From the NCBI RefSeq assembly GCF_029227855.1, contig NZ_CP074356.1: DNA of 64,000 bases. The stretch is one strand, 5' to 3'. Below are positions 29,674 through 50,015 of the stretch, piece after piece. Each line of letters opens with the position of its first letter. Within the stretch, counting starts at the first letter, position 1. The position numbers were made by a program, and so were the translations under genes. Below the pieces are notes generated by a model. The model made no database searches, had not been told where the DNA came from, and was given only the letters and a program-made list of their open reading frames with translations. The stretch is from Escherichia coli (lineage in GTDB: Bacteria; Pseudomonadota; Gammaproteobacteria; Enterobacterales; Enterobacteriaceae).

Positions 29674-37656
<7,983 letters not shown>

Positions 37657-37968
37657 GCTTACCTTCCCTGAACGAGCTAACATAAATGCGCCCTTTCTAG
37701 CACAGCGAAAAAATATAAATCCTGATAGCAATATGATTGAAAATTAATAACTTTTCGTTAGGCAGTTTTGGGTGTGAGTTGCAAGAGGGGAGACTACTGA
37801 ATTACTCAAGTTTTATAATCGAGGGGAAAATGGTGATGGCGTCCATAGCAAAACGCCCTCAACCATAAAGGTCGAGGGCGCTTAAGATGTCAAAAACCCG
37901 CTATCCGTTAAAAAGCAATGCTCAACTAAGGTCAGTGACATTGCGCTAAAAAGCAAATTTTTAGAATT

Positions 37969-38044
37969 TGGCTCCTCTGACTGGACTCGAACCAGTGACA
38001 TACGGATTAACAGTCCGCCGTTCTACCGACTGAACTACAGAGGA
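37969..38044 (-). tRNA. asnT: tRNA-Asn (GUU)
   Basis: Identical 76-nt tRNA-Asn on minus strand. Confidence 0.9.
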
Positions 38045-38144: not shown

Positions 38145-38942
38145 TTAATGAACATTCGTCGTCGAAAACGAGTCTGTATCATTAGCGTGGTGCAGTCTCT
38201 GCAAAGGATCTTGTTGATAAAATTGGCAGAAACGTTGCCACAATGAAGGGAAACGAGGAGCAAAAAGTTCTGGGGCGCTAAAGAAATATTCAGAAAGTAC
38301 GGCAAAACATTCAGCAGGATCACTGGCAGCATAAGCATCAATGCTCGCCGCATTCTCGCCAACCAATTCGATTTCTTCCTGAATGTTGTTCATTGCAGCA
38401 TGAAGATCGTATTCCCAGCCAGCAACCTCACGCAACGGAATAAAGGGAACTCCGCTGGCGCGATCGCCGTTACGGGTGTCCAGCTTATGAGCGACTTCAT
38501 GAATAATCAGGTTAAAACCAGAAGCATCAAAAGAATCTTGTATATCCAACCAGTTCAAAACGATAGGCCCTTGCTGCCAGCTCTGACCTGACTGAACAAT
38601 ACGTTGGTTATGCACCAGACCGATATCGTCTTCCCATTCATCATCGACCACAAATGGCGCAGGATAAATTAAGACTTCATGAAAACCATCCAGCCATTCC
38701 AGTCCTAACTCCAGAACGGGCAGGCAAAATAGAAGTGCTATCCGGCAGCTTCTTAATGAATCCAGTTCAAAGCCCTGTAAAGGAACAAGCCGCTTTTGCT
38801 GTAAAAAACGTTCGGCAAGAGTGACTAATTTGCTTTGTTCCTGTTCCGTCAGACACGTTAAAAGGGGGATCGATAGTGCTTCCTGCCAGGGAAGGGCAGT
38901 TTGATGTGCTGATTCTTGTACTTTCCAGGGCCACTTAATCAT
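38145..38942 (-). CDS. mtfA: Mlc titration factor A (zinc-dependent peptidase family)
   Basis: Internal ATG gives 265 aa starting [14 protein letters not shown]; HExxH motif ([10 protein letters not shown]). Confidence 0.85.
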
Positions 38943-39035
38943 CGTTTTGCTCGCAAACTCGTCACTTGAACAAAATTGCACGGACAGGGACTGTTAAAAT
39001 GCCAAATTTCCTGGCATCATGGCAACCATCTGAAC

Positions 39036-39125
39036 GGAGAGATGCCGGAGCGGCTGAACGGACCGGTCTCGAAAACCGGAGTAGGGGCAACTCTACCGGG
39101 GGTTCAAATCCCCCTCTCTCCGCCA
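39036..39125 (+). tRNA. serU: tRNA-Ser (CGA); prophage integration site
   Basis: GGAGAGATGCCGGAGCGGCTGAACGGACCGGTCTCGAAAACCGG...CTCTCCGCCA with long variable arm; integrase gene begins about 50 bp downstream. Confidence 0.9.
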
Positions 39126-39177: not shown

Positions 39178-40203
39178 TTACTTGGAATATTTTCTTGGAA
39201 TATTTTCAGGTAACGGGACATCAAGTGTCGGTGAAACTTTAACCTTCCTGTCATAGATTAGCACTTGCCCCTCGGTTTTGTGACCAGAGAAAAGTTGCTT
39301 ATCCCGACTGCTTCCTTCATAGTCTGAAATTCCTTTCGCCTTCAGATCATGAAAGGTGAAGTCGGTTAAAATACCTGAAATTTTGCCTGCGCGATTTCTT
39401 GCTTCTACCCACATTTCGTTAAAGCCTTTGTACATATATCGGTTGCCGTACTGATTGCTGATTACATAGGCGGATGTTGGTAACTGTTTTGCTTTTTCGA
39501 TCGCCGCCTGTAATCGTGGACTCCATGCTTTTATCTGTTTTTTTCCTGTTTTCCCTTGCTGGATAAAGATCCCGTCGTTTCCAATCTGCTCCCATTTCAG
39601 CGATAACACATCGGAAACCCTCGCTGCACACAGATAGGCAATTTCCATTGCGATAAAAACAGGAAGAGGTGCAACGCTTAATACTGCCTGGTATTCTTTG
39701 TCGGTTACATATCGTTCGCGGTTTTTGGCCTTGAATTTACTTACACCTGCACATGGGTTAGCCTTCACGTACCCTCGCTCATACCCCCAACTGTAAACGC
39801 GGGACATACTGCTTTTTTCATGGTTGGCTTGCGTTTTACTCTGTTCCCCTCTCTTGTCCATGTATCGACGGATGTGTTCTGGTTTTATGGAATCTGCCGG
39901 CACCTTACCGAATACGGCAAGCAACTTTTTTTGATGTTGCAGATAATCTTTTTGTGTTCTTGGACTGAGGTCACTGTAATAGGCGCTGGCGAGGAATTTT
40001 TCCCACAAGCGACCGAATGTCATTGCACGATCGCGATTATTTACAGTTTCCTCATACTTTTTCCATAAAGCAGCTAAACCATCCTTGATGGCGGTTAGTG
40101 TTACAGATTCTCTGGATGTTGGTTTCCATACATAACTATATTTATTTGGGTATACATTTGGAGGTAATTTTTCGTGTTCAGGATTTTTCCTTCGTCTTCC
40201 CAT
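39178..40203 (-). CDS. int: Phage integrase (tyrosine recombinase)
   Basis: 341-aa ORF starting MGRRRKNPEHEKLPPNVY (lambda-Int-like N-terminus); adjacent to tRNA-Ser. Confidence 0.9.
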   Translation of the reverse strand: MGRRRKNPEHEKLPPNVYPNKYSYVWKPTSRESVTLTAIKDGLAALWKKYEETVNNRDRAMTFGRLWEKFLASAYYSDLSPRTQKDYLQHQKKLLAVFGKVPADSIKPEHIRRYMDKRGEQSKTQANHEKSSMSRVYSWGYERGYVKANPCAGVSKFKAKNRERYVTDKEYQAVLSVAPLPVFIAMEIAYLCAARVSDVLSLKWEQIGNDGIFIQQGKTGKKQIKAWSPRLQAAIEKAKQLPTSAYVISNQYGNRYMYKGFNEMWVEARNRAGKISGILTDFTFHDLKAKGISDYEGSSRDKQLFSGHKTEGQVLIYDRKVKVSPTLDVPLPENIPRKYSK

Positions 40204-40406: not shown

Positions 40407-40464
40407 AGCTATATCTCATAACCGCCGCTAACTATATACGGTTAGCGGCAATTAGGGTTGAACA

Positions 40465-42906
40465 TTAAAAATCAGCCTGACTCGGGATCAGTTTTTGCCA
40501 GATAGCTGAAACGTATTTTGCCTGGTAACGAGCGTCATCAAGTGCATTATGGCGCTCACCTTCGAATGGAATAGCCGTTCTGGCATCGAAGTCTATGGCT
40601 TTCCCCAGCTCAACGATTGTGCGTACATCGCGATCGTTGTAGTAACGCCACGGGCAGGGGATCCCCTGCCGTTCGTATGAACGGCGCAAAATCGTGTTGT
40701 CGAAGTTGGCTCCATTTCCCCAGACCTGAACAAAAAATTCACCGGAGTTTTCGTCGATAAATTCCCGCAATTGTAACAGTGCATCATCTAACGGGATTTC
40801 ATCGGTCATAATGGCAGATTGCGCTTCGCGTGATTGCTTAAGCCACCATTTAATGGTGTCCCGATCAATGACTCCGCCAGCAGTTTCCAGATCGATAGTC
40901 TTACTAAATTCCGGTCCCATATCTCCGGTTTGCGGATCGAAAAATATTGCACCTATTGAGATGATCGGGGCATCAGGATTTTTTCCCATGGTTTCAAGGT
41001 CGATCATTAGATGGTCACACGTCCTGCTGGTGGATGTGATTTCGTGATGACCATTCACCGTAATTAAGGGATCTGCCGTCTCGCCAGTTTTACTATCGCT
41101 GGCGTGGTCCTGAGCGCTGCCAGCATTCTCCTTGTGTGGATGTTCAGCGCCTTCCATTTCCTCCGGATCATTTTCCTGAACTTCAACCTGATTCTCTTCA
41201 TCGAATGTTTTCTGGTATGTTGCGTCGCCCATCACCGCGCCACAATCAGGGCAGTTGCCGCCACCGCTCTGACCGCAGGCGGAGCAGACTTTTTCCGGTT
41301 CCTGTTGCGCTACTGGTTCGGATTGTTTCGTTTCTGGCTCGTTTTGTAACGCATTTGGGCTGTTTTGTTCCGCTTTTTGGTCGTTCCGTTCCGATTCATG
41401 CTGGTTCTGGTTCACAGAATCGCGAGTCTGGATCCCCTTGACCCATTTCGGATCATTAGGGTCGCTAATCCCCTCAACAAATTCACCACGCGATACAGCA
41501 AGTAACTTATCGGCGTCAGGCTGGCTGATATTGGCTGCCTGCATAATTTTGTTTACTTCGTCAGCGGTGACTTTTACTTGGTTAGCGGAACTCACCTGCG
41601 ACTGAGCATCCAGCGACTGCGCGTTCTGGCAATGTTCAGTTGTATCCGGTTCCATTGTTTCAGTTGTTGCCTGTTCACCTGCCATTGCGTCAGATGGTTG
41701 TGGTTTTTCTTCTTCTGTTTCACGCTCAGTAACCACCTCGCGGTTAATTTCTTCCAGGATATCTTTTTCCGGCGTATGCCGGGCAGCTGTGAGAGTTTCC
41801 TTGCTGGGGTTCTCGTGATCAGTTTCCGTCAAATAGGCGTTGATATACCCCTGAAGGCGTCCCGGGTAGTGATAAAATTCAGGGTGTGCGCTTCGGATAA
41901 GTGCAAAAATAGCGGCGCGGGAATAGTCCAGAATACCCGGGGTTGCACGAAGTGCTGCGGACCATTCTTTGAACGGACTTTCTTTTTTCAGGACTACTTC
42001 TTTTGCGCGACGATAAACGCTGCCCGGAATTTCATAAATATTAAAATCCATCGGAAGTGTGGCTGCTGCAATCTCCACATCCAGTGTGTCGAGGGTGTGT
42101 ACTAAATTCGGACTGCGATCGGTTTTGTTCCCACCGCCAGCATTAGCACCGGAAGCCGTGCGGGTGATGCGTGAAACACGATTTCCTTTCATCCACTCTT
42201 TTGTCAGCAGACCCCGATCAGTGTAGTCAGCGTCCAGGTATGCTTCGAAAAAAGCAGTTATTAGTCCCAGGTCTGAATTACCAGGATTAGGGAAAACTTT
42301 GTCAGTGTCACGAACCAGTTTGTGGAGGTCGCGAATCTCCAGCGAGTCGAGCAGACTGGTTTTATGCGAAATAGCCAGGGCAGTAACAGCCGGTAGTTCT
42401 TCAGCCCGTGCAATGTGTAATGCCTGGAGTTCGTCGCGTGAAACGTGCGTTACTGGTTTTTCGCTGCCGTGTTGAGCAAGCCAACGAATGGGCAGTTCCT
42501 GACCGGAGACAGGTAGAAGCATGCTCTCCTCAATCTCAGTCATGTCTTCGCCGTTGATGTTGGTATTATCAGTGCTGGCTGATTTGTCCTGAACAGAGGG
42601 GGAAGGGCCGATAAATGTCATTGTGATGCCATCTTTCCCGCCTTTTTCATAGCGGTTGCAGAATTCAGTATCAAACACGCCTTCTGGCGGAAGGTCGTCA
42701 ACAACGGGCAAATTGACGCGGACGGGTTTTTTAAAGTCGTCTTCATCATAATCGTTGTCATCCATTGCGGTAATGCAGCGGGAGATTGCAACAGATAATT
42801 TTTTTGCTGTAGTCCAGTAAAAACCACCTTTAATTCCTAGGCGTTTTCTTACTTTGTCATTTTTTGCTTCGCAATATAGTGCAAATTCTTCTTTATCAGT
42901 GCTCAT
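40465..42906 (-). CDS. Prophage exonuclease (813 aa) with C-terminal DEDD/DnaQ-like 3'-5' exonuclease domain
   Basis: C-terminal motifs MIDLETMG and HNALDDA; CxxC...CxxC zinc-ribbon-like motif (CSACG...CPDCG); long acidic low-complexity middle. Confidence 0.7.
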
Positions 42907-42999
42907 TATTGATAAACCTCATCACAGATTTAAGGGTGAACAAATCTCTGCCATTGCTGACATATAAGAATGAAACTGGATATTTATTACGGTGCTGTT

Positions 43000-43191
43000 T
43001 TAAAATCCTGCCGGGATTTCGTTATTATCCTGGTGAATAACTTTATCGACCGGATAACAGTTGCCTGGAATTTTCTGTTCGGTTGCTGCTGCCATACATT
43101 CCTGCATTGTTCTGTGAACACTGACTGCAATATCAACTGGCTCTCCGGAAACAAGAAAAACCGTCAGAATAAGTGCAAATACTGGATTCAT
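43000..43191 (-). CDS. ydfD: YdfD-like small lysis/membrane protein
   Basis: Internal start MNPVFALILTVFLVSGEPVDIAVSVHRTMQECM... (63 aa); start overlaps the dicB stop. Confidence 0.6.
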   Translation of the reverse strand: MNPVFALILTVFLVSGEPVDIAVSVHRTMQECMAAATEQKIPGNCYPVDKVIHQDNNEIPAGF

Positions 43192-43376
43192 TGTGCACAT
43201 CCTTTTGGCATCAGACGTAAACGGGCCAGCATTGAAACAATGCATACTTTATTTAATAACTCCCGTTCGTGTTTTCTTTTGTTAATGGCCTCTTCAGTAA
43301 ATACAGGATTACTGATAGTGACACCAATTTCAAAACAACCTTCAGACGTATTAACGTTTGGTAATAACGTTTTCAT
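43188..43376 (-). CDS. dicB: Cell-division inhibitor DicB
   Basis: 62-aa ORF MKTLLPNVNTSEGCFEIGVTISNPVFTEEAINKRK... essentially matches the Qin prophage DicB as recalled. Confidence 0.8.
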   Translation of the reverse strand: MKTLLPNVNTSEGCFEIGVTISNPVFTEEAINKRKHERELLNKVCIVSMLARLRLMPKGCAQ

Positions 43377-43544
43377 TATCGCGCCCCAACAATGAGTTTT
43401 GTGATGCGGTGCCTGGTGCCTCCAGGTGACGTTAACCAGTTAACAATTAACGCCGGATACAGAGAATCCACCCATAACACTGTTTTTGGTTTTAACTGTT
43501 CCGCGTGCGCTTAGCCGCATTCACCGCATCACAAAATTCACTTT

Positions 43545-43602
43545 AAAAAGGGCGGCAGAGCAGTCACGGAGTAAAACTGATACCGCCAAACGTCACCAGA
43601 AA
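43545..43602 (-). ncRNA. dicF: DicF small RNA (ftsZ-targeting antisense sRNA)
   Basis: Reverse complement reads TTTCTGGTGACGTTTGGCGGTATCAGTTTTACTCCGTGACTGCTCTGCCGCCCTTTTT, including a terminator hairpin; immediately upstream of dicB. Confidence 0.8.
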
Positions 43603-43943
43603 ATTGATAACAGAGGGCGTTGCAGCGGGGTTGTCACTTAAGCGTATGGTCAACCTGACAACCCGGTGTCCTCAACGGGGGAAGGAATAACCCCGCCATA
43701 CTTACCGCCGCGCCATTTCGCGGATTGCCACAACCGGAAGCGCACGGTCGACGAAAATTTAACGACAGGCTATCTATGAACCAGCTACCTCGCCGTGCGC
43801 TTTCGCGTTATGGTCTGACTTTTCAGGGAAATATCCTTTCAGTAAACTGTCAGTGCCGGATGCTCACCCGTGTCCGGCGCACGCACTCCACCTCACCCGT
43901 GGAGAACTCCTTAATTACTAACCTTAGCTTTGTTGATTAGCTA

Positions 43944-44162
43944 CTAACGCGGGTATGTAATCATTCTGGCAATGCTTAATGCCGCTGCTTTTTCCAGATT
44001 GGTGATATCCTGCTCCAGAGCGGACAGATTTTCAGCCTGCTTAGCCCTGGCTTCATTAGCCCATTTCAGATCCTGCGCTGCATTAATTTTCTGGCGCATC
44101 CACTCATAAAGTTCATCATCGGTATAGTCTGGCGCGATGATGACGGGTTCTCGTTTCTGCAC
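43944..44162 (-). CDS. ydfC: YdfC-like prophage protein
   Basis: 72-aa ORF in the ydfA-ydfB-ydfC-dicF-dicB arrangement. Confidence 0.55.
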   Translation of the reverse strand: MQKREPVIIAPDYTDDELYEWMRQKINAAQDLKWANEARAKQAENLSALEQDITNLEKAAALSIARMITYPR

Positions 44163-44191
44163 GCTGATTCCTCGCGGTGCTGTTTCGCTTA

Positions 44192-44320
44192 TCAGCCGTT
44201 AGATTTTGCCGAACTGGAAAGCGCCTGTTTAAATTCGCTGAAGCTGAGAGCTTCTTCGCCTTCGGCAAGGCCTTCGAAGTATTCTTCGTAAGCCTTTTCC
44301 ATGATTGTGTCGAAATCCAT
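44192..44320 (-). CDS. ydfB: YdfB-like small protein (42 aa)
   Basis: Hand-translated ORF MDFDTIMEKAYEEYFEGLAEGEEALSFSEFKQALSSSAKSNG; below track size cutoff. Confidence 0.55.
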   Translation of the reverse strand: MDFDTIMEKAYEEYFEGLAEGEEALSFSEFKQALSSSAKSNG

Positions 44321-44321
44321 A

Positions 44322-44477
44322 TCACCCACCTGAATTTCTTTCCAGCCAGCGACGCGCTCCAGATTCGGTTTTAAACGTTTTGCTTTTGGTATACGTCATT
44401 GCGGTGAAGGTGCCGTCCTGGTTGGGAAACACGCCGTACACCAGAGATTCGTTGTTGCCAAGATCGATAGTATCCAT
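44322..44477 (-). CDS. ydfA: YdfA-like small protein (DUF1391-like, 51 aa)
   Basis: Internal start MDTIDLGNNESLVYGVFPNQDGTFTAMTYTK within track ORF 44322-44558. Confidence 0.6.
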   Translation of the reverse strand: MDTIDLGNNESLVYGVFPNQDGTFTAMTYTKSKTFKTESGARRWLERNSGG

Positions 44478-44774
44478 GCTGACCTCATTTCCCCTTAACG
44501 CCGGGGTAGCGGAACAAAAACCTGCTGCATAGTTATTAAAGTTGAACCCTGCCGTCATGTTCTTACGCCTCGGGCTGGCTACTTAACCCCTGACCACTGC
44601 CTGGTAACTCGAAGTATTGCCCTGCATTCTGTGGGGCGGGGTGGGTGGTAGGTATATAATGTACTTTTCGTTCATTGTTGTAAAGTACTTTTAGTACATT
44701 TTGTGTGTAAAAAAATGAGATGGGATAAAGTGAAGCACAAACCCGGAGGAAGGCGCTACCGGATTTATGCTGGT

Positions 44775-45194
44775 TTAAGAGGCTTTTTGTTTTTTCTTTC
44801 GTGCTAACTCTTCGTAAATTGCATTGTACTTCTGTTTTTTCTCTTCAAGAGTTTTTAAAAGTTCATCTGTCTCACTGTCAGGGAGCTCGTCCAGAAGGTC
44901 AATGATGATTTTTTGTCTTGGATTTAACTCCTGATAGAAACGTACCTGTCCACTTTCTTCTGTATCCTCTCCCAAAAGATAGGTTGGTGTTGTTCCTATT
45001 AGTGTTGCTAATTCCCTTAATTTCTCCCGGCGAGGAATTGTTTCGCCATTAAACCATTTGCTAACCGCTTTTGGTGTTAATTTCATTCGACGGGCAATTT
45101 CTGCCTGCCTTCCATGTTGTTCATAACCAGCGTTTTCACAGGCTAGCGCAAGCCTACTGGCGAACTCTTTACGCGCTTTATCTTCATGAACCAT
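44775..45194 (-). CDS. Prophage repressor (XRE-family HTH; DicA/RacR/CI-like)
   Basis: 139-aa ORF with HTH (GRQAEIARRMKLTPKAVSKWFNGE); divergent from cro-like gene; same direction as the leftward dicB operon. Confidence 0.7.
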   Translation of the reverse strand: MVHEDKARKEFASRLALACENAGYEQHGRQAEIARRMKLTPKAVSKWFNGETIPRREKLRELATLIGTTPTYLLGEDTEESGQVRFYQELNPRQKIIIDLLDELPDSETDELLKTLEEKKQKYNAIYEELARKKKQKAS

Positions 45195-45273
45195 AAGTTC
45201 AATGATATTCGCTCTTGAATGTACTGTCAGTTCTGTTATAGCATGTACTCAAAGTTCACATTGTGAGGGTGAT
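45195..45273. promoter_or_regulatory. Putative immunity-region operator/promoter interval between repressor and cro-like genes
   Basis: Short divergent intergenic region with repeated ATGTACT(G/C) motifs. Confidence 0.4.
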
Positions 45274-45528
45274 ATGAACCAGAAAACACTTGAAGATGTA
45301 ATCAAAACTGTTCGCGTTGCTGTTGTGGCCGACGTTTGTGGTGTCAGCCAAAGAGCAATCTATAAATGGATGGATAACGGAAAATTGCCTCGCACAGAAT
45401 ATACCGGCGAAACAAATTACGCTGAAAAAATCGCTCTTGCATCAAACGGATTATTTTCTGCCGATGCAATTTTAACTATTGGCAGGAATAAAACTACTAC
45501 GAAAAAGCTGATGGGAGTTGATTCATGA
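45274..45528 (+). CDS. Cro/YdaS-like HTH protein
   Basis: Internal ATG (MNQKTLEDVIKTVRVAVVADVCGVSQRAIYKWMDNGKLP) within track ORF 45202-45528. Confidence 0.6.
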   Translation: MNQKTLEDVIKTVRVAVVADVCGVSQRAIYKWMDNGKLPRTEYTGETNYAEKIALASNGLFSADAILTIGRNKTTTKKLMGVDS

Positions 45529-45950
45529 AAATCAAGCATGAACACATCCGCATGGCGATGAATGCCTGGGCGCATCCGGACGGCGAAAAAGTACCGGCTG
45601 TGAAAATTACCAAAGCGTATTTCGAGCTGGGAATGACGTTCCCGGAACTGTATGACGACAGCCATCCGGAAGCCCTGGCTCGCAATACTCAGAAAATTTT
45701 CCGCTGGGTGGAGAAAGACACCCCTGATGCGGTTAAAAAAATTCAGGCGTTGTTACCAGCTATCGAAAAAGCAATGCCACCTCTGCTGGTGGCCCGAATG
45801 CGCAGTCATAGCTCAGCCTATTTTCGGGAACTAGTGGAGACGCGGGAACGACTGGTGAGAGACGCTGATGATTTTGTCGCAGTGGCGATCGCTGGTTTCA
45901 ACCAGATGAATCGTGGTGGCCCTGCAGGAAATATTGTGGCTGTGCATTGA
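45525..45950 (+). CDS. YdaT-like prophage protein
   Basis: 141-aa ORF translationally coupled to the cro-like gene, in the YdaS/YdaT arrangement of Rac-type prophages. Confidence 0.5.
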   Translation: MKIKHEHIRMAMNAWAHPDGEKVPAVKITKAYFELGMTFPELYDDSHPEALARNTQKIFRWVEKDTPDAVKKIQALLPAIEKAMPPLLVARMRSHSSAYFRELVETRERLVRDADDFVAVAIAGFNQMNRGGPAGNIVAVH

Positions 45951-46015
45951 CTCGCAATATTCATACCGGATCACTTCCGGCAATTTGTGAGTAAAAAGAT
46001 TCGGTATCAAAAGAG

Positions 46016-47104
46016 GTGAGTATGGCTAACGCCTGGCTCAGATTATGGCATGACATGCCAAATGACCCTAAGTGGCGAACAATTGCCAGGGTGTCAGGGC
46101 AGCCAATTGCAACAGTGATGGCAGTGTATATCCACCTCCTGGTGAGCGCGTCACGAAATGTCACGCGAGGTCACATTGATGTCACGACAGAAGATTTGGC
46201 AAGTGCGCTCGACGTGACAGAAGAGGTAATTGATTCAATTTTGCAGACGATGCAGGGGCGGGTACTTGATGGTGATTTAATCACTGGATGGGAAAAACGC
46301 CAGGTGCTTAAAGAGGACAACGGCAATATTTCGCAAACCGCAAAATCTCCTGCAGAGCGCAAGAGGGCGCAGCGAGAGAGGGAAAGAAAGCGGGAACAAA
46401 ATGGCGATTGTCACGGCGCGTCACGAAATGTCACGCACATGTCACGACGAGTCACGACAGATAAAGATACAGATAAAGATACAGATAAAGATACAGATCA
46501 AGAAGATCAAAACACTATGGTCCATGGCGTAAAAAACGCCACGAACCAGGCAGGGGATGTTCAGACCGTCAATCTTGGTCAGCCAGCAGGCACGACACCG
46601 GAAGCCGATTCAGCGTATGCGCTGAAAGCCGATTCGGGCGCTGTGCAGCAGGTGATGACCGCAAGGCCGGAGCAATCACACCAACTGCAGCAGCCCGAAG
46701 CCGATTCCGCCATTCAGCGGGAAGCCGATCGGGTAGTCCCGGAAAACACCGGGCAGTCTGTGGGACGAGTGGATTATCCGGATGTGTTCGAACAGGTCTG
46801 GCGGGAGTACCCGTTGCGTGCCGGAGCAAACCCGAAGAAATCCGCTTTCAGTGCCTGGAAGGCCAGATTACGCGAGGGGGTGCCACCAGAGGCCATGCTG
46901 GATGGCGTGAGGCGTTACGCAAGATACTTGGCGGCTACCGGGAAAACGGGAACGGAATTTGTTCAGCGAGCGACGACGTTTTTTGGACCGGACCGGAATT
47001 TTGAGAACCCCTGGTTGCTCCCGGTAAGCGGCACGAACAACCAGCGTTGTGTGAATCATATTTCTGAACCGGATAACGAAATTCCGCCGGGCTTCAGGGG
47101 GTAA
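46016..47104 (+). CDS. Putative phage replication initiation protein (O-like) containing internal iterons
   Basis: 362-aa ORF with N-terminal HTH-like region, low-complexity middle (DKDTDKDTDKDTD) and two clusters of GTCACG direct repeats inside the coding sequence. Confidence 0.55.
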   Translation: MSMANAWLRLWHDMPNDPKWRTIARVSGQPIATVMAVYIHLLVSASRNVTRGHIDVTTEDLASALDVTEEVIDSILQTMQGRVLDGDLITGWEKRQVLKEDNGNISQTAKSPAERKRAQRERERKREQNGDCHGASRNVTHMSRRVTTDKDTDKDTDKDTDQEDQNTMVHGVKNATNQAGDVQTVNLGQPAGTTPEADSAYALKADSGAVQQVMTARPEQSHQLQQPEADSAIQREADRVVPENTGQSVGRVDYPDVFEQVWREYPLRAGANPKKSAFSAWKARLREGVPPEAMLDGVRRYARYLAATGKTGTEFVQRATTFFGPDRNFENPWLLPVSGTNNQRCVNHISEPDNEIPPGFRG

Positions 47105-47144
47105 GTGTTAATTTCTGGTCATGAGGTAATTTTCAGGAGGGCTT

Positions 47145-47567
47145 GTGGCAAAAGTTTTTACACAAGAAGAGCGGGAAAAAATTAAAGGGCAGGTTGTTGA
47201 ACTCGTACGCCAGAGTGGGCGCGAGACGTTACGACAACTGGAAACTAAAACTGGGGCAACAAGATATCTGATGAGCGTTCTGGCCAGAGAGCTGGTTGCC
47301 AGTGGCGATGTATACAACTCTGGTTACGGGTTATTCCCGTCTGAACAGGCGCGTAAGGACTGGCAAAATGCCCGTAAAAAGCTCTCAAGGGCAAAGCCGA
47401 AGAAACCATCTGCGGTTGATCCGGACCTAATCTGGTCATTACCAGACGGAGAAATACGCCGCTACGACAGGCGCCTGAATATAATCTGTCGCGAGTGCCG
47501 GAAGAGCGAAGCTATGCAGCGTGTACTGGCTTTCTATCAGGGTAATTTTCAGGAGGCGGTACTGTGA
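47145..47567 (+). CDS. Hypothetical prophage protein (140 aa)
   Basis: Track ORF; good spacing after replication gene; no family recognised. Confidence 0.5.
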   Translation: MAKVFTQEEREKIKGQVVELVRQSGRETLRQLETKTGATRYLMSVLARELVASGDVYNSGYGLFPSEQARKDWQNARKKLSRAKPKKPSAVDPDLIWSLPDGEIRRYDRRLNIICRECRKSEAMQRVLAFYQGNFQEAVL

Positions 47568-48257: not shown

Positions 48258-49401
48258 TTTTGGTTCAACTAAATACAACGTCAGTTTTGAAAAATGGCAT
48301 GAACTGTTAATGGACTATGCAGAGTTACGTGGTGGCAGTGCTGCTGATGCTGAAGCATGGCGTGATGATTATGAAGCAGGAAAAAATCCGGTCGAAGCAT
48401 ATTGTGATGAGTGGGGCGATGAATGAGCGAGATTAATTATCAGGAAGGGTATGAAACGGCGGGGCAAGCAAAACCAGTGGCATGGCGATATCGCTACGTG
48501 AAAAAAGGCGTTACGGACTTTCAGGAGAAGTAGTGGTCTGTTGACTGGAAATATGTACCGAAAAAAGAGGATTGTAACGACAGGCCGAACTATCAAATTC
48601 AGGCCTTATTCACTGCCTCACCAGCCCTGGTTACATCAGAAGAACTGGTTAAAGCTGTGCACTTTTATGAACAACTAAAACGCGAAAATCCACCAACATC
48701 CGGCAACTAGATTAATGGGTTAACTATGTCGGTTAAACGACCAGCCAACTGAAAAAGCGGAAACCTGATTATAGGTTGCCAGATAAGGCAATAAGCTACC
48801 TGGCGCGGAACGGACTGATAAGTATGGGGAATGTTTTACGATGAACCTTTAGACTAAAGAGTTTGTAACGCTATGTAAGTGATTTTTTCTAGTTTAGATA
48901 TTTATATGTCCGGCCAAATTGAGGTGTGTTTAAATGTAATTGCACATTGATTGTAGGAGGAATAATGAAAAACGCATTGCAGTTTTTGTTTGTTGCGTTC
49001 TGGTTGTTCGTATCATGTATGCCCATCATCTTCACAGCAAGGTATATGGAAAAAGTTGATGTTTTGATATTAATATTTGGATATATAAATGCCCTTTTTT
49101 TAGGGGTGTTCATGGCGGTCATGTGCATTGAATACTGGCGGTAAATACAGCGAACTCCATTGGTTTAGTTGGATATTTATTGTGCTGGACAAAAACGGTT
49201 TGCGGGGAAATCTTAGTTAAGTAGAATGACTGCGGGTGCTTGAGGCTATCTGCCTCGGGCATGAACACCAACGGCAGATAGAGAAAAGCCCCAGGTAACA
49301 TTACGCGTCCTGCAAGACGTTTAACATTAATCTGAGGCCATATCTATGCGACACATAGAGATTAGCCTCTTACGGACCGAAAGGTCAAGGAGAAGCAGGC
49401 T

Positions 49402-49557
49402 ATGAAGCAGCAAAAGGCGATGTTAATCGCCCTGATCGTCATCTGTTTAACCGTCATAGTGACGGCACTGGTAACGAGGAAAGACCTCTGCGAGGTACGA
49501 ATCCGAACCGGCCAGACGGAGGTCGCTGTCTTCACAGTTTACGAACCTGAGGAGTAA
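49402..49557 (+). CDS. hokD: Hok/Gef-family type I toxin (51 aa)
   Basis: Hand-translated MKQQKAMLIALIVICLTVIVTALVTRKDLCEVRIRTGQTEVAVFTVYEPEE; short upstream ORF ends at the hok ATG; terminator hairpin at about 49626-49650. Confidence 0.85.
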   Translation: MKQQKAMLIALIVICLTVIVTALVTRKDLCEVRIRTGQTEVAVFTVYEPEE

Positions 49558-50015
49558 GAGACCCGGCGAGGGAGAAATCCCTCGCCACCTCTGATGTGTC
49601 AGGCATCCTCAATGCACCCGCACTTAACCCGCTTCGGCGGGTTTATTTTATCTGTGAATATTTTTATAAAAATAATGCCCACACACAGCATAAAACAAAA
49701 AGTATCACAGATAAAAAAGGAGCGTAATGTGCAGATTTGTTGTTTTCCATATTTACTCACTTTAACATAATCAATATTGATATGGTTGTTGTTTCGGTGG
49801 TTTCAAACGAGATGTTATGATGATCTGGTAAAATTGCATAACATTAAAATTTAATTTATCTAATCGCTTTTAATAATAAGCGTTGTGTTTATCCCAACAA
49901 TCTGTTGTTTGACTTTTATTCCATTAATGTAGGGGCTTTACACTGGAACCAGTTTATTTATACTTTATACGCCAGCCTGAACAACTGGCACCTGCTGCGC
50001 CAGCAGAGACAACCG

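What the first reader, a model, noticed from the sequence alone, without database searches (positions are those of the whole stretch)
44775..45528. Compact divergent repressor/cro switch with repeated ATGTACT motifs
An XRE-family repressor and a Cro-like gene are divergent with only about 80 bp between the likely starts. The spacer carries ATGTACTG/ATGTACTC repeats that could be operators; the leftward operon behind the repressor leads to dicF-dicB.
Basis: inference. Interest (0 to 1): 0.3.

Follow-up and report, generated by a model that had tools for sequence, protein, structure and literature searches.

The report
HK022-type prophage repressor/Cro switch
This is the on/off switch of a lambda-like E. 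coli prophage: the ATGTACT repeats are halves of five repressor-binding sites of the type known from phage HK022, so it is ordinary, except that its repressor has a DicA-like tail in place of the usual self-cleaving domain.

Summary
A 139-aa HTH repressor (44775-45194, -) and an 84-aa Cro-like gene (45274-45528, +) diverge across 79 bp. The leftward operon reaches DicF and dicB.

The two ATGTACT repeats are the left halves of 15-bp operators, TG(T/A)AC-N5-GT(T/A)CA.
- OR3 (45187-45201) covers the repressor start codon.
- An OL pair (44660-44674, 44684-44698) sits on a pL-like promoter.

A matrix built only from the five operators annotated in phage HK022 ranks these five sites among the six best in the 64-kb window. 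The OR spacing (33/24 bp) and OL spacing (24 bp) are the same as in HK022. In eleven homologous immunity regions from six genera, half-sites are 97% conserved against 79% for the other columns between OR3 and OR1.

- The repressor's DNA-binding domain is 47% identical to HK022 CI over 99 residues, with a near-identical recognition helix. Cro is 60% identical to HK022 Cro.
- The repressor lacks the S24 self-cleavage domain. Its helical tail is homologous to DicA's.
- It is 100% identical to the CI of phage Tritos. A paper on strain LF82 does not list Tritos among the ciprofloxacin-induced prophages.

An exact YdaT (CII-like) site lies at the cro/ydaT junction. Verdict: a known kind of switch, low interest.

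The parts
44660..44674 (.). OL1 operator TGTACTTTTCGTTCA, overlapping the -10 of the pL-like promoter
   Evidence: HK022-derived PWM score 16.6. It corresponds to the first oL site annotated in X16093 and is conserved in 9 loci.
44684..44698 (.). OL2 operator AGTACTTTTAGTACA, 24 bp from OL1 and abutting the -35 of pL
   Evidence: PWM score 17.5. Same 24-bp spacing as the HK022 oL pair.
44656..44684 (-). pL-like promoter TTTACA-17-CATTAT, driving ydfA/ydfB/ydfC-like genes, DicF and dicB
   Evidence: Consensus scan, 9 of 12 matches. The position corresponds to the pL -35/-10 annotated in HK022. The function is inferred.
44775..45194 (-). Immunity repressor, 139 aa: HK022-CI-like HTH domain (aa 1-75), disordered linker, DicA-like two-helix tail (aa 92-138), no S24 peptidase domain
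   Evidence: Pfam HTH_3. 47% identity to HK022 CI over aa 4-102. Motif TPKA[V/I]SKWFNGE conserved in 9 homologues. 29% identity to DicA over aa 30-137, E 5e-15. AlphaFold model, pLDDT 82.8. 100% identical to Tritos CI.
45187..45201 (.). OR3 operator TGAACCATAAGTTCA, a perfect half-site palindrome containing the repressor start codon (CAT 45192-45194)
   Evidence: Identical to HK022 oR3 and oR1. PWM score 19.96, the best in the window. Conserved in all 11 loci.
45202..45230 (-). pRM-like promoter CTGACA-17-TATCAT. The -10 ends 7 nt before the repressor ATG, so the mRNA is probably leaderless.
   Evidence: Consensus scan, 10 of 12 matches. A TATnnT hexamer sits at the same position in all 11 aligned loci (my reading). 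The leaderless start is inferred by analogy with lambda cI and PaaR2.
45220..45234 (.). OR2 operator TGTACTGTCAGTTCT.
   Evidence: PWM score 14.6. HK022 oR2 is TGTACTATCAGTTCC. It lies 33 bp from OR3, as in HK022.
45215..45242 (+). pR-like promoter: -35 TTGAAT (45215-45220), 16-bp spacer, -10 TATAGC (45237-45242)
   Evidence: Placed by position against the annotated HK022 pR, TTGACT-16-CATAAT. It fell below the consensus scan's threshold, so it is an inference.
45244..45258 (.). OR1 operator TGTACTCAAAGTTCA.
   Evidence: PWM score 17.1. It lies 24 bp from OR2, as in HK022.
45274..45528 (+). Cro-like repressor, 84 aa
   Evidence: 60% identity to HK022 Cro, E 1e-33. Matches phrog_35, a transcriptional repressor family. 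Homologues at 49-100% identity occur in every locus that carries the operator array.
45518..45535 (.). YdaT (CII-analogue) operator TTGATTCATGAAAATCAA at the cro stop / ydaT start
   Evidence: The only exact match in 64 kb to the published YdaT OM motif TTGATT-N6-AATCAA. The same site is present in Tritos, L010 and L011.
45525..45950 (+). YdaT-family protein, functional analogue of lambda CII
   Evidence: Pfam YdaT_toxin. Matches phrog_163, a CII-like activator family. Near-identical to PDB 3c4r and E 6e-80 to 8bt1.
43000..44558 (-). Leftward early operon: ydfA-like 44322-44558, ydfB-like 44192-44329, ydfC-like 43944-44162, DicF sRNA 43550-43601, dicB 43188-43376, ydfD-like 43000-43245
   Evidence: Pfam DUF1391, DicB and DUF1482. 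Rfam DicF. Same gene order as Qin in K-12 and as Tritos.

Best explanation
This is the immunity (lysis/lysogeny) switch of a lambdoid prophage integrated beside tRNA-Ser. It is built like the HK022 switch.

The 139-aa repressor binds, probably as a dimer or higher oligomer formed through its helical tail, to 15-bp inverted repeats of the form TG(T/A)AC-N5-GT(T/A)CA. Binding at OR1 and OR2 covers pR and silences cro, ydaT and the replication genes. Binding at OL1 and OL2 covers pL and silences the ydfABC-dicF-dicB operon. OR3 contains the repressor's own start codon and the probable leaderless pRM start, so it should give negative autoregulation by the repressor and shut-off by Cro. The 84-aa Cro is expected to use the same sites with the opposite preference.

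After infection, YdaT (the CII analogue) binds the exact TTGATT-N6-AATCAA site at the cro/ydaT junction. From there it would boost leftward repressor synthesis from a pRE-like promoter.

The repressor has a DicA-type tail and no S24 domain. The switch should therefore not be flipped by RecA-stimulated self-cleavage. Release would come either from RecA-independent stochastic or instability-driven switching, as reported for DicA/DicC, or from an antirepressor not yet identified.

What is shown here: the gene and site anatomy, the homologies, and the conservation. What is inferred: binding itself, the order in which sites fill, the leaderless pRM start, the oligomeric state, and the induction route.
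For: - **Independent motif test.** A PWM built only from the five operators annotated in HK022 record X16093 finds six sites scoring at least 14.5 in 64 kb. Five of them are the OL and OR sites. Shuffled windows give a mean of 0.41 and a maximum of 3.
- **Spacing.** The 33/24-bp OR spacing and 24-bp OL spacing match HK022 and the ten other loci, from six genera in all.
- **Conservation.** Half-site columns are 0.967 conserved against 0.788 for the other columns between OR3 and OR1. Conservation peaks at register 0, and only 2 of 100,000 random column sets reach it.
- **Repressor domain.** The HTH domain is 47-58% identical to HK022 CI and 51-75% identical to the heterologous CI homologues. The motif TPKA[V/I]SKWFNGE is conserved.
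- **Cro.** It is 60% identical to HK022 Cro.
- **Promoters.** Promoter-like hexamers overlap the sites as they do in HK022.
- **Published behaviour of HK022 CI.** It binds OR and OL cooperatively and loops them (PMC8053113).
- **YdaT.** The site and the protein match published work.
- **Tail and induction.** The tail is homologous to DicA's. DicA is reported to be insensitive to mitomycin C and independent of RecA, and to form a bistable switch with DicC (bioRxiv 10.1101/2023.04.14.536235).
- **The module works in a live phage.** The repressor is 100% identical to that of plaque-forming phage Tritos. It is transcribed 24-fold above background in the LF82 lysogen. The paper reports only Gally and Cyrano as strongly ciprofloxacin-induced, not Tritos.
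Against: - No binding experiment exists for this protein.
- If pRM starts at the ATG, OR2 is centred near -33 and overlaps the predicted -35. That geometry differs from lambda's activating OR2 at -42, so positive autoregulation is doubtful and the pRM assignment could be wrong.
- The proposed pR -10 (TATAGC) is weak and was not picked up by the consensus scan.
- HK022's extra operators are absent: OL3 (53 bp beyond OL2) and the site about 300 bp downstream of OR. Cooperativity and looping may therefore differ.
- HK022 CI's cooperativity resides in a domain this protein lacks.
- No antirepressor was found. There is no Rem homologue, no ImmA gene and no strict LexA box in the window. The induction route is open.
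- The Tritos result is what the paper reports for one strain and one drug dose.
Confidence: 0.85

Rival explanations
1. The ATGTACT repeats are chance similarity, or merely parts of promoter hexamers, and are not protein-binding sites.
For: The 7-mer is not enriched window-wide: 8 found against 5.4 expected. The repeats overlap promoter-like hexamers.
Against: Four of the 8 copies cluster in about 600 bp. The extended 15-bp sites are recovered by a matrix derived from another phage. Their spacing and half-sites are conserved across six genera while the central 5 bp and the flanks vary.
Confidence: 0.03
2. The switch is of the DicA/DicC (Qin) or RacR/YdaS (Rac) type, uses their operators, and is homoimmune with those cryptic prophages.
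For: The flanking genes are Qin-like (ydfABC-dicF-dicB) and Rac-like (ydaT). The repressor tail is DicA-like.
Against: The HK022 matrix finds nothing in the dicC-dicA or racR-ydaS intergenic regions (best score in either K-12 locus 10.7, outside those spacers). Those spacers carry different repeats: TGTTAG..CTAACA in Qin and CATTAGGC/GCCTAATG in Rac. Identity to RacR covers only 33 aa, there is no YdaS or DicC similarity, and the HTH region matches HK022 CI far better than DicA. K-12 DNA matches only the ydfA/ydfB flank.
Confidence: 0.04
3. The module is an inert relic of a decayed prophage, and its sites are conserved only because of recent common descent.
For: The window shares only the early region with Tritos. 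The completeness of this prophage cannot be judged because the window ends in the head genes.
Against: The repressor and Cro are 100% identical to those of Tritos, which forms plaques and expresses the repressor in lysogens. Conservation holds at 49-75% protein identity across genera, far beyond recent descent. All ORFs are intact.
Confidence: 0.08

Closest known systems
Phage HK022 immunity region (cI, cro, OR1-3, OL; GenBank X16093; Carlson & Little 1993, cited through PMC8053113)
   Same: Divergent repressor and cro genes. Same operator sequences: OR3 is identical to HK022 oR3/oR1, and OR2 differs at 2 of 15 positions. Same 33/24-bp OR and 24-bp OL spacing, same overlap of sites with pR and pL, and the repressor start codon lies inside OR3. 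The HTH domain is 47% identical over 99 aa (58% over the core 72 aa) and Cro is 60% identical.
   Different: The repressor is 139 aa, not about 235, and lacks the S24/LexA-like cleavage and cooperativity domain. There is no OL3 and no downstream extra operator. The pL operon encodes ydfABC-dicF-dicB rather than nun. CII is replaced by YdaT.
DicA/DicC switch of cryptic prophage Qin (E. coli K-12)
   Same: A short, non-S24 repressor with an HTH domain and a homologous helical tail (29% identity, E 5e-15). It sits upstream of the same ydfA-ydfB-ydfC-dicF-dicB-ydfD operon, and a Cro-like partner is transcribed divergently.
   Different: Different operator motif and hence different immunity. DicC is not homologous to this Cro. 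The Rem antirepressor that relieves DicA has no homologue here.
PaaR2/YdaS/YdaT switch of CP-933P and RacR/YdaS/YdaT of Rac
   Same: A lambdoid switch with a non-S24 repressor, a probably leaderless repressor mRNA, and YdaT as the CII analogue binding TTGATT-N6-AATCAA at the cro/ydaT junction.
   Different: PaaR2 operators have a different reported consensus, GTTTAGTAA. RacR and YdaS show no meaningful similarity to this repressor or Cro. No toxin-antitoxin pair follows the repressor here, although the Salmonella relatives have HigB plus an HTH gene at that position.
Escherichia phage Tritos (prophage 3 of AIEC strain LF82, OV696610)
   Same: The same module: 97% DNA identity over 44300-46000, with repressor and Cro proteins 100% identical. 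The operators are identical except for one central base each in OL1 and OR1.
   Different: The rest of the genome is mosaic, with a different integrase and late genes. Tritos carries an ImmA-like gene that is absent here. The Tritos record annotates no operators, extends Cro to 108 aa, and labels YdaT as 'Rha family'.

Membership tests
HK022-type lambdoid immunity region | Divergent repressor and cro genes separated by a tripartite OR | tested here: met
   Three PWM sites at 45187, 45220 and 45244, between the ATG at 45194 (-) and the ATG at 45274 (+).
HK022-type lambdoid immunity region | Operator sequence of the HK022 type | tested here: met
   A PWM built from the five annotated HK022 sites scores the five window sites 14.6-20.0. 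Shuffled windows give a mean of 0.41 sites at or above 14.5.
HK022-type lambdoid immunity region | Same operator spacing and a second operator set (OL) on pL beyond the repressor gene | tested here: met
   OR spacing 33/24 bp and OL spacing 24 bp, identical to X16093.
HK022-type lambdoid immunity region | Repressor DNA-binding domain and Cro homologous to those of HK022 | tested here: met
   47% identity over 99 aa, E 6e-32, and 60% over 73 aa, E 1e-33. The recognition-helix motif is conserved.
HK022-type lambdoid immunity region | Repressor C-terminal LexA-like (S24) domain for RecA-stimulated cleavage and cooperativity | tested here: not met
   No Peptidase_S24 match. The protein ends at residue 139 and similarity to HK022 CI stops near residue 100.
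HK022-type lambdoid immunity region | Accessory operators: OL3 53 bp beyond OL2, and a site about 300 bp downstream of OR | tested here: not met
   No PWM hit of 8 or more at either position. OL3 is seen only in loci with the S24 long form of the repressor.
HK022-type lambdoid immunity region | Repressor and Cro actually bind these sites; cross-immunity with HK022 | not testable with these tools
   This needs EMSA or footprinting and plating of HK022 on a lysogen.
DicA-type short prophage repressor (Qin) | HTH_3 domain plus a homologous helical C-terminal tail of about 50 aa, with no S24 domain | tested here: met
   BLASTP against K-12 DicA gives 29% identity over aa 30-137, E 5e-15, including the tail. 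The model shows helices 92-102 and 106-138.
DicA-type short prophage repressor (Qin) | Placed upstream of a promoter driving ydfABC-dicF-dicB | tested here: met
   Gene order and a pL-like promoter with OL1/OL2. Repression itself is inferred.
DicA-type short prophage repressor (Qin) | DicA operator specificity | tested here: not met
   No HK022-type site in the Qin dicC-dicA or dicA-ydfA spacers, which carry different repeats.
DicA-type short prophage repressor (Qin) | Cognate Rem antirepressor on the same prophage | tested here: not met
   tblastn with Rem finds nothing in the window (best E 0.68) or in Tritos. The slot between hokD and ydfU holds no ORF. The right end of the prophage is outside the window.
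Rac / CP-933P type (RacR or PaaR2, YdaS, YdaT) | YdaT-family CII analogue after cro, with its TTGATT-N6-AATCAA site at the junction | tested here: met
   Pfam YdaT_toxin. PDB 3c4r and 8bt1 match at E 4e-90 and 6e-80. Exact motif at 45518-45535.
Rac / CP-933P type (RacR or PaaR2, YdaS, YdaT) | Repressor homologous to RacR and Cro homologous to YdaS | tested here: not met
   RacR gives 36% identity over 33 aa only, E 4.5e-4. YdaS gives E 0.48.

The most novel reading that the evidence does not exclude
A non-cleavable, DicA-tailed repressor has acquired HK022 operator specificity by domain shuffling. The same HTH domain occurs with an S24 domain in HK022 and in Klebsiella and Raoultella phages, and with the helical tail in E. 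coli and Salmonella prophages. If the specificity is truly shared, a cell carrying this prophage would be immune to HK022-immunity phages. It would also hold any co-resident SOS-inducible HK022-type prophage repressed after DNA damage. That would be a dominant 'immunity lock' acting between prophages. The loss of OL3 in every short-form locus would reflect re-tuned cooperativity.
Probability: 0.2. Interest if true: 0.45.

Novelty: new member of a known kind. Interest (0 to 1): 0.2.

Why it matters
This finding mainly tidies annotation.
- It assigns five operators, three promoters and a YdaT site to an immunity module present in about 400 complete E. coli genomes and in the AIEC LF82 phage Tritos, whose record has none of these features.
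- It offers an explanation for why the LF82 paper does not list Tritos among the ciprofloxacin-induced prophages: the repressor has no self-cleavage domain.
- It shows that one DNA-binding specificity is paired with two different C-terminal modules, a clear example of domain-level mosaicism in lambdoid repressors.
- It predicts cross-immunity with HK022, which can be tested.
- Because pL controls DicF and DicB, which inhibit cell division, the switch also sets when these host-affecting products are made.

Tried and rejected
- **SOS control.** A strict LexA box (CTGT-N8-ACAG) has no match in the window.
- **Rem antirepressor of Qin.** It has no homologue in the window or in Tritos. The equivalent slot between hokD and ydfU is AT-rich and holds no ORF.
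- **ImmA/IrrE protease of Tritos as the inducer.** The gene is absent from the window, so it cannot be a required part of the module.
- **PDB sequence and Foldseek searches with the repressor.** They returned only generic HTH domains (P22 C2, 434, LexA N-terminal domain, SinR-like architectures), with no match below E 0.001. Nothing informative came back for the tail.
- **A sixth PWM hit at 61647-61661.** It lies inside a 533-aa late-gene ORF and is treated as chance.
- **HK022's OL3 and downstream extra operator.** Neither is present.
- **The YdaT motif with up to 3 mismatches.** It occurs at chance level (42 found, 41.8 expected). Only the single exact match is meaningful.
- **The 108-aa reading of cro from ATG 45202.** Rejected in favour of ATG 45274 on the basis of the SD sequence, the HK022 alignment and the 84-aa call in L010.
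- **tblastn of the tail against phage genomes.** It found only Tritos and three near-identical E. coli phages.
- **The Carlson & Little J. Bacteriol. paper.** It is not held in the library.
Full report
**What is in the sequence**

The interval holds two intact, divergent genes. ORF 44775..45194 (-) encodes a 139-aa protein with an HTH_3 domain, E 1.8e-9. The rightward ORF ends at 45528. The mechanical ORF starts at 45202. The start that follows a GAGG Shine-Dalgarno sequence is ATG 45274. It also aligns with the HK022 cro start and matches the 84-aa gene called on metagenomic contig L010.

ATGTACTG is at 45219-45226 and ATGTACTC at 45243-45250. The bare 7-mer is not enriched in the window: 8 found against 5.4 expected. 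However, four of the eight copies lie between 44659 and 45249. The repeat finder extends them to 15-22-nt families spaced 24 bp apart at two places, 560 bp from each other (D1, D2, D4, I13).

Downstream of the repressor, on its strand, lie:
- a DUF1391 (ydfA-like) gene and ydfB/ydfC-like genes;
- a DicF RNA at 43550-43601 (Rfam, 76.7 bits);
- dicB at 43188-43376 (Pfam, E 5.7e-39);
- a ydfD-like gene.

To the right of cro is a YdaT-family gene at 45525-45950, followed by replication genes. The prophage starts at an integrase gene (39178..40203, -) next to tRNA-Ser(cga). It runs past the right end of the window.

**What the repeats are**

DNA search against phage genomes showed that window 45034-45443 is about 70% identical to the cI/oR/cro region of phage HK022 and to several Klebsiella, Citrobacter and Providencia phages. 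That stretch covers the 5' part of the repressor gene, the spacer and the 5' part of cro.

The HK022 record X16093 annotates three oR and two oL 15-bp "potential repressor binding sites", plus pR and pL. Its sites read as follows:

| HK022 site | Sequence |
|---|---|
| oR3 and oR1 | TGAACCATAAGTTCA |
| oR2 | TGTACTATCAGTTCC |
| first oL site | TGTACTTAAAGTTCA |
| second oL site | AGTACCAATAGTACA |

The window carries these sites:

| Window site | Coordinates | Sequence |
|---|---|---|
| OR3 | 45187-45201 | TGAACCATAAGTTCA (identical to HK022 oR3/oR1) |
| OR2 | 45220-45234 | TGTACTGTCAGTTCT |
| OR1 | 45244-45258 | TGTACTCAAAGTTCA |
| OL1 | 44660-44674 | TGTACTTTTCGTTCA |
| OL2 | 44684-44698 | AGTACTTTTAGTACA |

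OR3 contains the repressor's start codon. The OL pair sits just beyond the 3' end of the repressor gene.

**Tests**

1. *An independent matrix.* I built a symmetrised weight matrix from the five annotated HK022 sites only and scanned the whole window. Six sites score at least 14.5, and five of them are the sites above. Two hundred shuffled windows gave a mean of 0.41 and a maximum of 3. The sixth hit (61647-61661) lies inside a 533-aa late ORF and is taken as chance.

   - HK022 and Tritos;
   - two Klebsiella phages, Citrobacter phage Omnitron and Providencia phage PSTNGR2lys;
   - two Salmonella contigs, a Raoultella contig and a JGI contig.

   Every one has the three-site array at the repressor start with the same 33/24-bp spacing. 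Those whose locus reaches far enough also have the OL pair at 24-bp spacing.

3. *Column conservation.* I aligned the 11 distinct sequences without gaps from OR3 to OR1.
   - The 30 half-site columns are 96.7% conserved, against 78.8% for the remaining 42 columns.
   - Only 2 of 100,000 random 30-column sets reach that value.
   - Conservation peaks exactly at register 0.

   The central five bases and the inter-operator DNA vary. That is the pattern expected for a dimeric HTH operator.

4. *Proteins travel with the sites.* Each locus encodes a Cro homologue (49-100% identity) and a repressor N-domain homologue (51-100%). The segment TPKA[V/I]SKWFNGE, which contains the recognition helix, is conserved in all nine aligned repressors.

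**Promoters**

The consensus scan finds two promoter-like sites, both on the minus strand.
- TTTACA-17-CATTAT (44684..44656) overlaps OL1 and abuts OL2. It is at the position of HK022 pL.
- CTGACA-17-TATCAT (45230..45202) has its -10 ending 7 nt before the repressor ATG. A TATnnT hexamer occupies that position in all 11 aligned loci (my reading). The repressor mRNA is therefore probably leaderless, as reported for lambda cI and PaaR2 (PMC8630535).

By position against HK022 pR, the rightward promoter is TTGAAT (45215-45220), a 16-bp spacer, then TATAGC (45237-45242). OR2 lies between the hexamers and OR1 lies over the start site. This promoter is weak by consensus and is an inference.

One caveat applies. 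With a start at the ATG, OR2 is centred near -33 of pRM. That geometry is not lambda's activating one.

**The repressor is a domain mosaic**

Similarity to HK022 CI ends near residue 100. There is no Peptidase_S24 match. The AlphaFold model (pLDDT 82.8) shows three parts:
- a five-helix HTH domain (residues 2-74);
- a disordered linker (residues 78-89);
- two helices (residues 92-102 and 106-138).

That tail is homologous to the C-terminus of DicA of prophage Qin: 29% identity over residues 30-137, E 5e-15.

In the protein database, the same N-terminal domain occurs with the short tail (138-151 aa; E. coli, Salmonella) or with an S24 domain (195-240 aa; Raoultella, Klebsiella, HK022). In the loci examined, the third OL site (53 bp beyond OL2, as described for HK022 in PMC8053113) appears only with the S24 form.

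**DicA and RacR operators**

The Qin dicC-dicA and dicA-ydfA spacers and the Rac racR-ydaS spacer have no HK022-type site (best score in either K-12 locus 10.7, outside those spacers). They carry different repeats. RacR, YdaS and DicC show no meaningful similarity to this repressor or Cro.

In E. coli genomes the flanks are widespread, matching in 4,398 of 5,426 genomes. Only 409 genomes hold this particular immunity cassette. Others have a LexA-family or RacR cassette between the same flanks. This is the classical mosaic pattern of lambdoid phages.

**How it probably works**

- *Maintenance.* The repressor occupies OR1/OR2 and OL1/OL2 and silences pR and pL. OR3, over its own start, limits its synthesis.
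- *Lytic development.* Cro takes over the same sites.
- *Establishment.* An exact TTGATTCATGAAAATCAA lies at 45518-45535, at the cro stop and ydaT start.
  - It is the only exact match in 64 kb to the YdaT operator defined by footprinting in CP-933P.
  - In CP-933P the site lies at the same gene junction, near the pRE analogue (PMC9986795).
  - The window's YdaT is nearly identical to PDB 3c4r and very close to the studied protein 8bt1.
  - The site recurs in Tritos, L010 and L011.
- *Induction.* Without an S24 domain, RecA-stimulated self-cleavage is not expected. Three published observations point the same way.
  - The repressor is 100% identical to that of Tritos, a plaque-forming prophage of AIEC strain LF82 whose CI gene is expressed 24-fold above background.
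  - Tritos is released spontaneously at about 3x10^6 genomes/mL. The paper reports only Gally and Cyrano as strongly induced by ciprofloxacin, not Tritos (PMC9928086).
  - For DicA, dicBp is reported not to be induced by mitomycin C and to switch spontaneously in about 1% of cells. That switching is independent of RecA and depends on DicC. dicBp can also be derepressed by the antirepressor Rem, by urea or by heat (bioRxiv 10.1101/2023.04.14.536235).

I found no Rem homologue, no ImmA gene and no strict LexA box in the window. The trigger is therefore unknown. My working view is RecA-independent bistable switching, possibly aided by an unidentified antirepressor encoded outside the window.

**Comparison and novelty**

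For DNA recognition and site layout, the switch is a member of the HK022 immunity type. It fails the HK022 features that depend on the C-terminal domain: the S24 domain, OL3 and the downstream extra operator.

In repressor architecture and in the operon it controls, it resembles DicA of Qin. It fails DicA's operator specificity and lacks Rem. In its CII analogue it is like Rac and CP-933P.

All parts are known kinds, and the exact module already sits in a sequenced phage annotated "CI repressor" and "Cro". The new contributions are the operator, promoter and YdaT-site assignment and the recognition of the domain swap. Interest is low.

The most novel reading still open is that this non-cleavable repressor shares specificity with SOS-inducible HK022-type repressors. 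If so, it could dominantly lock such phages in the repressed state.

Noticed in passing
window 45518-45535: TTGATTCATGAAAATCAA is the only exact match in the window to the published YdaT operator TTGATT-N6-AATCAA. It sits at the cro stop / ydaT start, as in CP-933P, and is also present in Tritos, L010 and L011.
   Followed up: yes
window 61647-61661: TGAACTGTTCGTTCA scores 15.6 with the HK022 operator matrix but lies inside a 533-aa late-gene ORF (61201..62802), 16 kb from the switch. It is probably chance.
   Followed up: partly
window 49234-49404 and 49402-49557: A sok antisense RNA (Rfam, 100.8 bits) and a hokD-like toxin ORF. In K-12 Qin the antirepressor gene rem lies between hokD and ydfU. 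Here that slot (49645-49998) is AT-rich with no ORF and no Rem homologue.
   Followed up: yes
L007 5067-6481 and L008 5061-6475 (reverse-complement coordinates): In the Salmonella relatives with the short repressor, a HigB-toxin gene plus an HTH gene sit between the repressor gene and OL, pushing OL about 1.3 kb from OR. This parallels paaR2-paaA2-parE2 in CP-933P.
   Followed up: partly
L001, L003, L004, L012 versus window, L002, L007, L008, L010 (OL alignment): A third OL site 53 bp beyond OL2 is present only where the repressor has the S24 domain, and is absent from all short-tail loci.
   Followed up: partly
L002 4903-5229 and 5226-5651 (Tritos OV696610): The public annotation extends Cro to 108 aa, starting inside the operator/pRM region. 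It also labels the YdaT-family gene 'Rha family transcriptional regulator'. Both look like annotation errors.
   Followed up: partly
window 37969-38044, 39036-39125, 39178-40203: tRNA-Asn(gtt) and tRNA-Ser(cga) flank an M90-peptidase gene (38145-38981). The prophage integrase gene begins 53 bp after tRNA-Ser, the likely attachment site. A 2,685-aa ORF (29674..37731, -) lies just outside the prophage.
   Followed up: no
window 40457-47542 versus Tritos: Only the early region (exonuclease VIII gene through the DUF977 gene) is about 96.5% identical to Tritos. The integrase, nin-region and late genes differ, and the Tritos ImmA-like gene is absent, so the prophage is a mosaic.
   Followed up: partly
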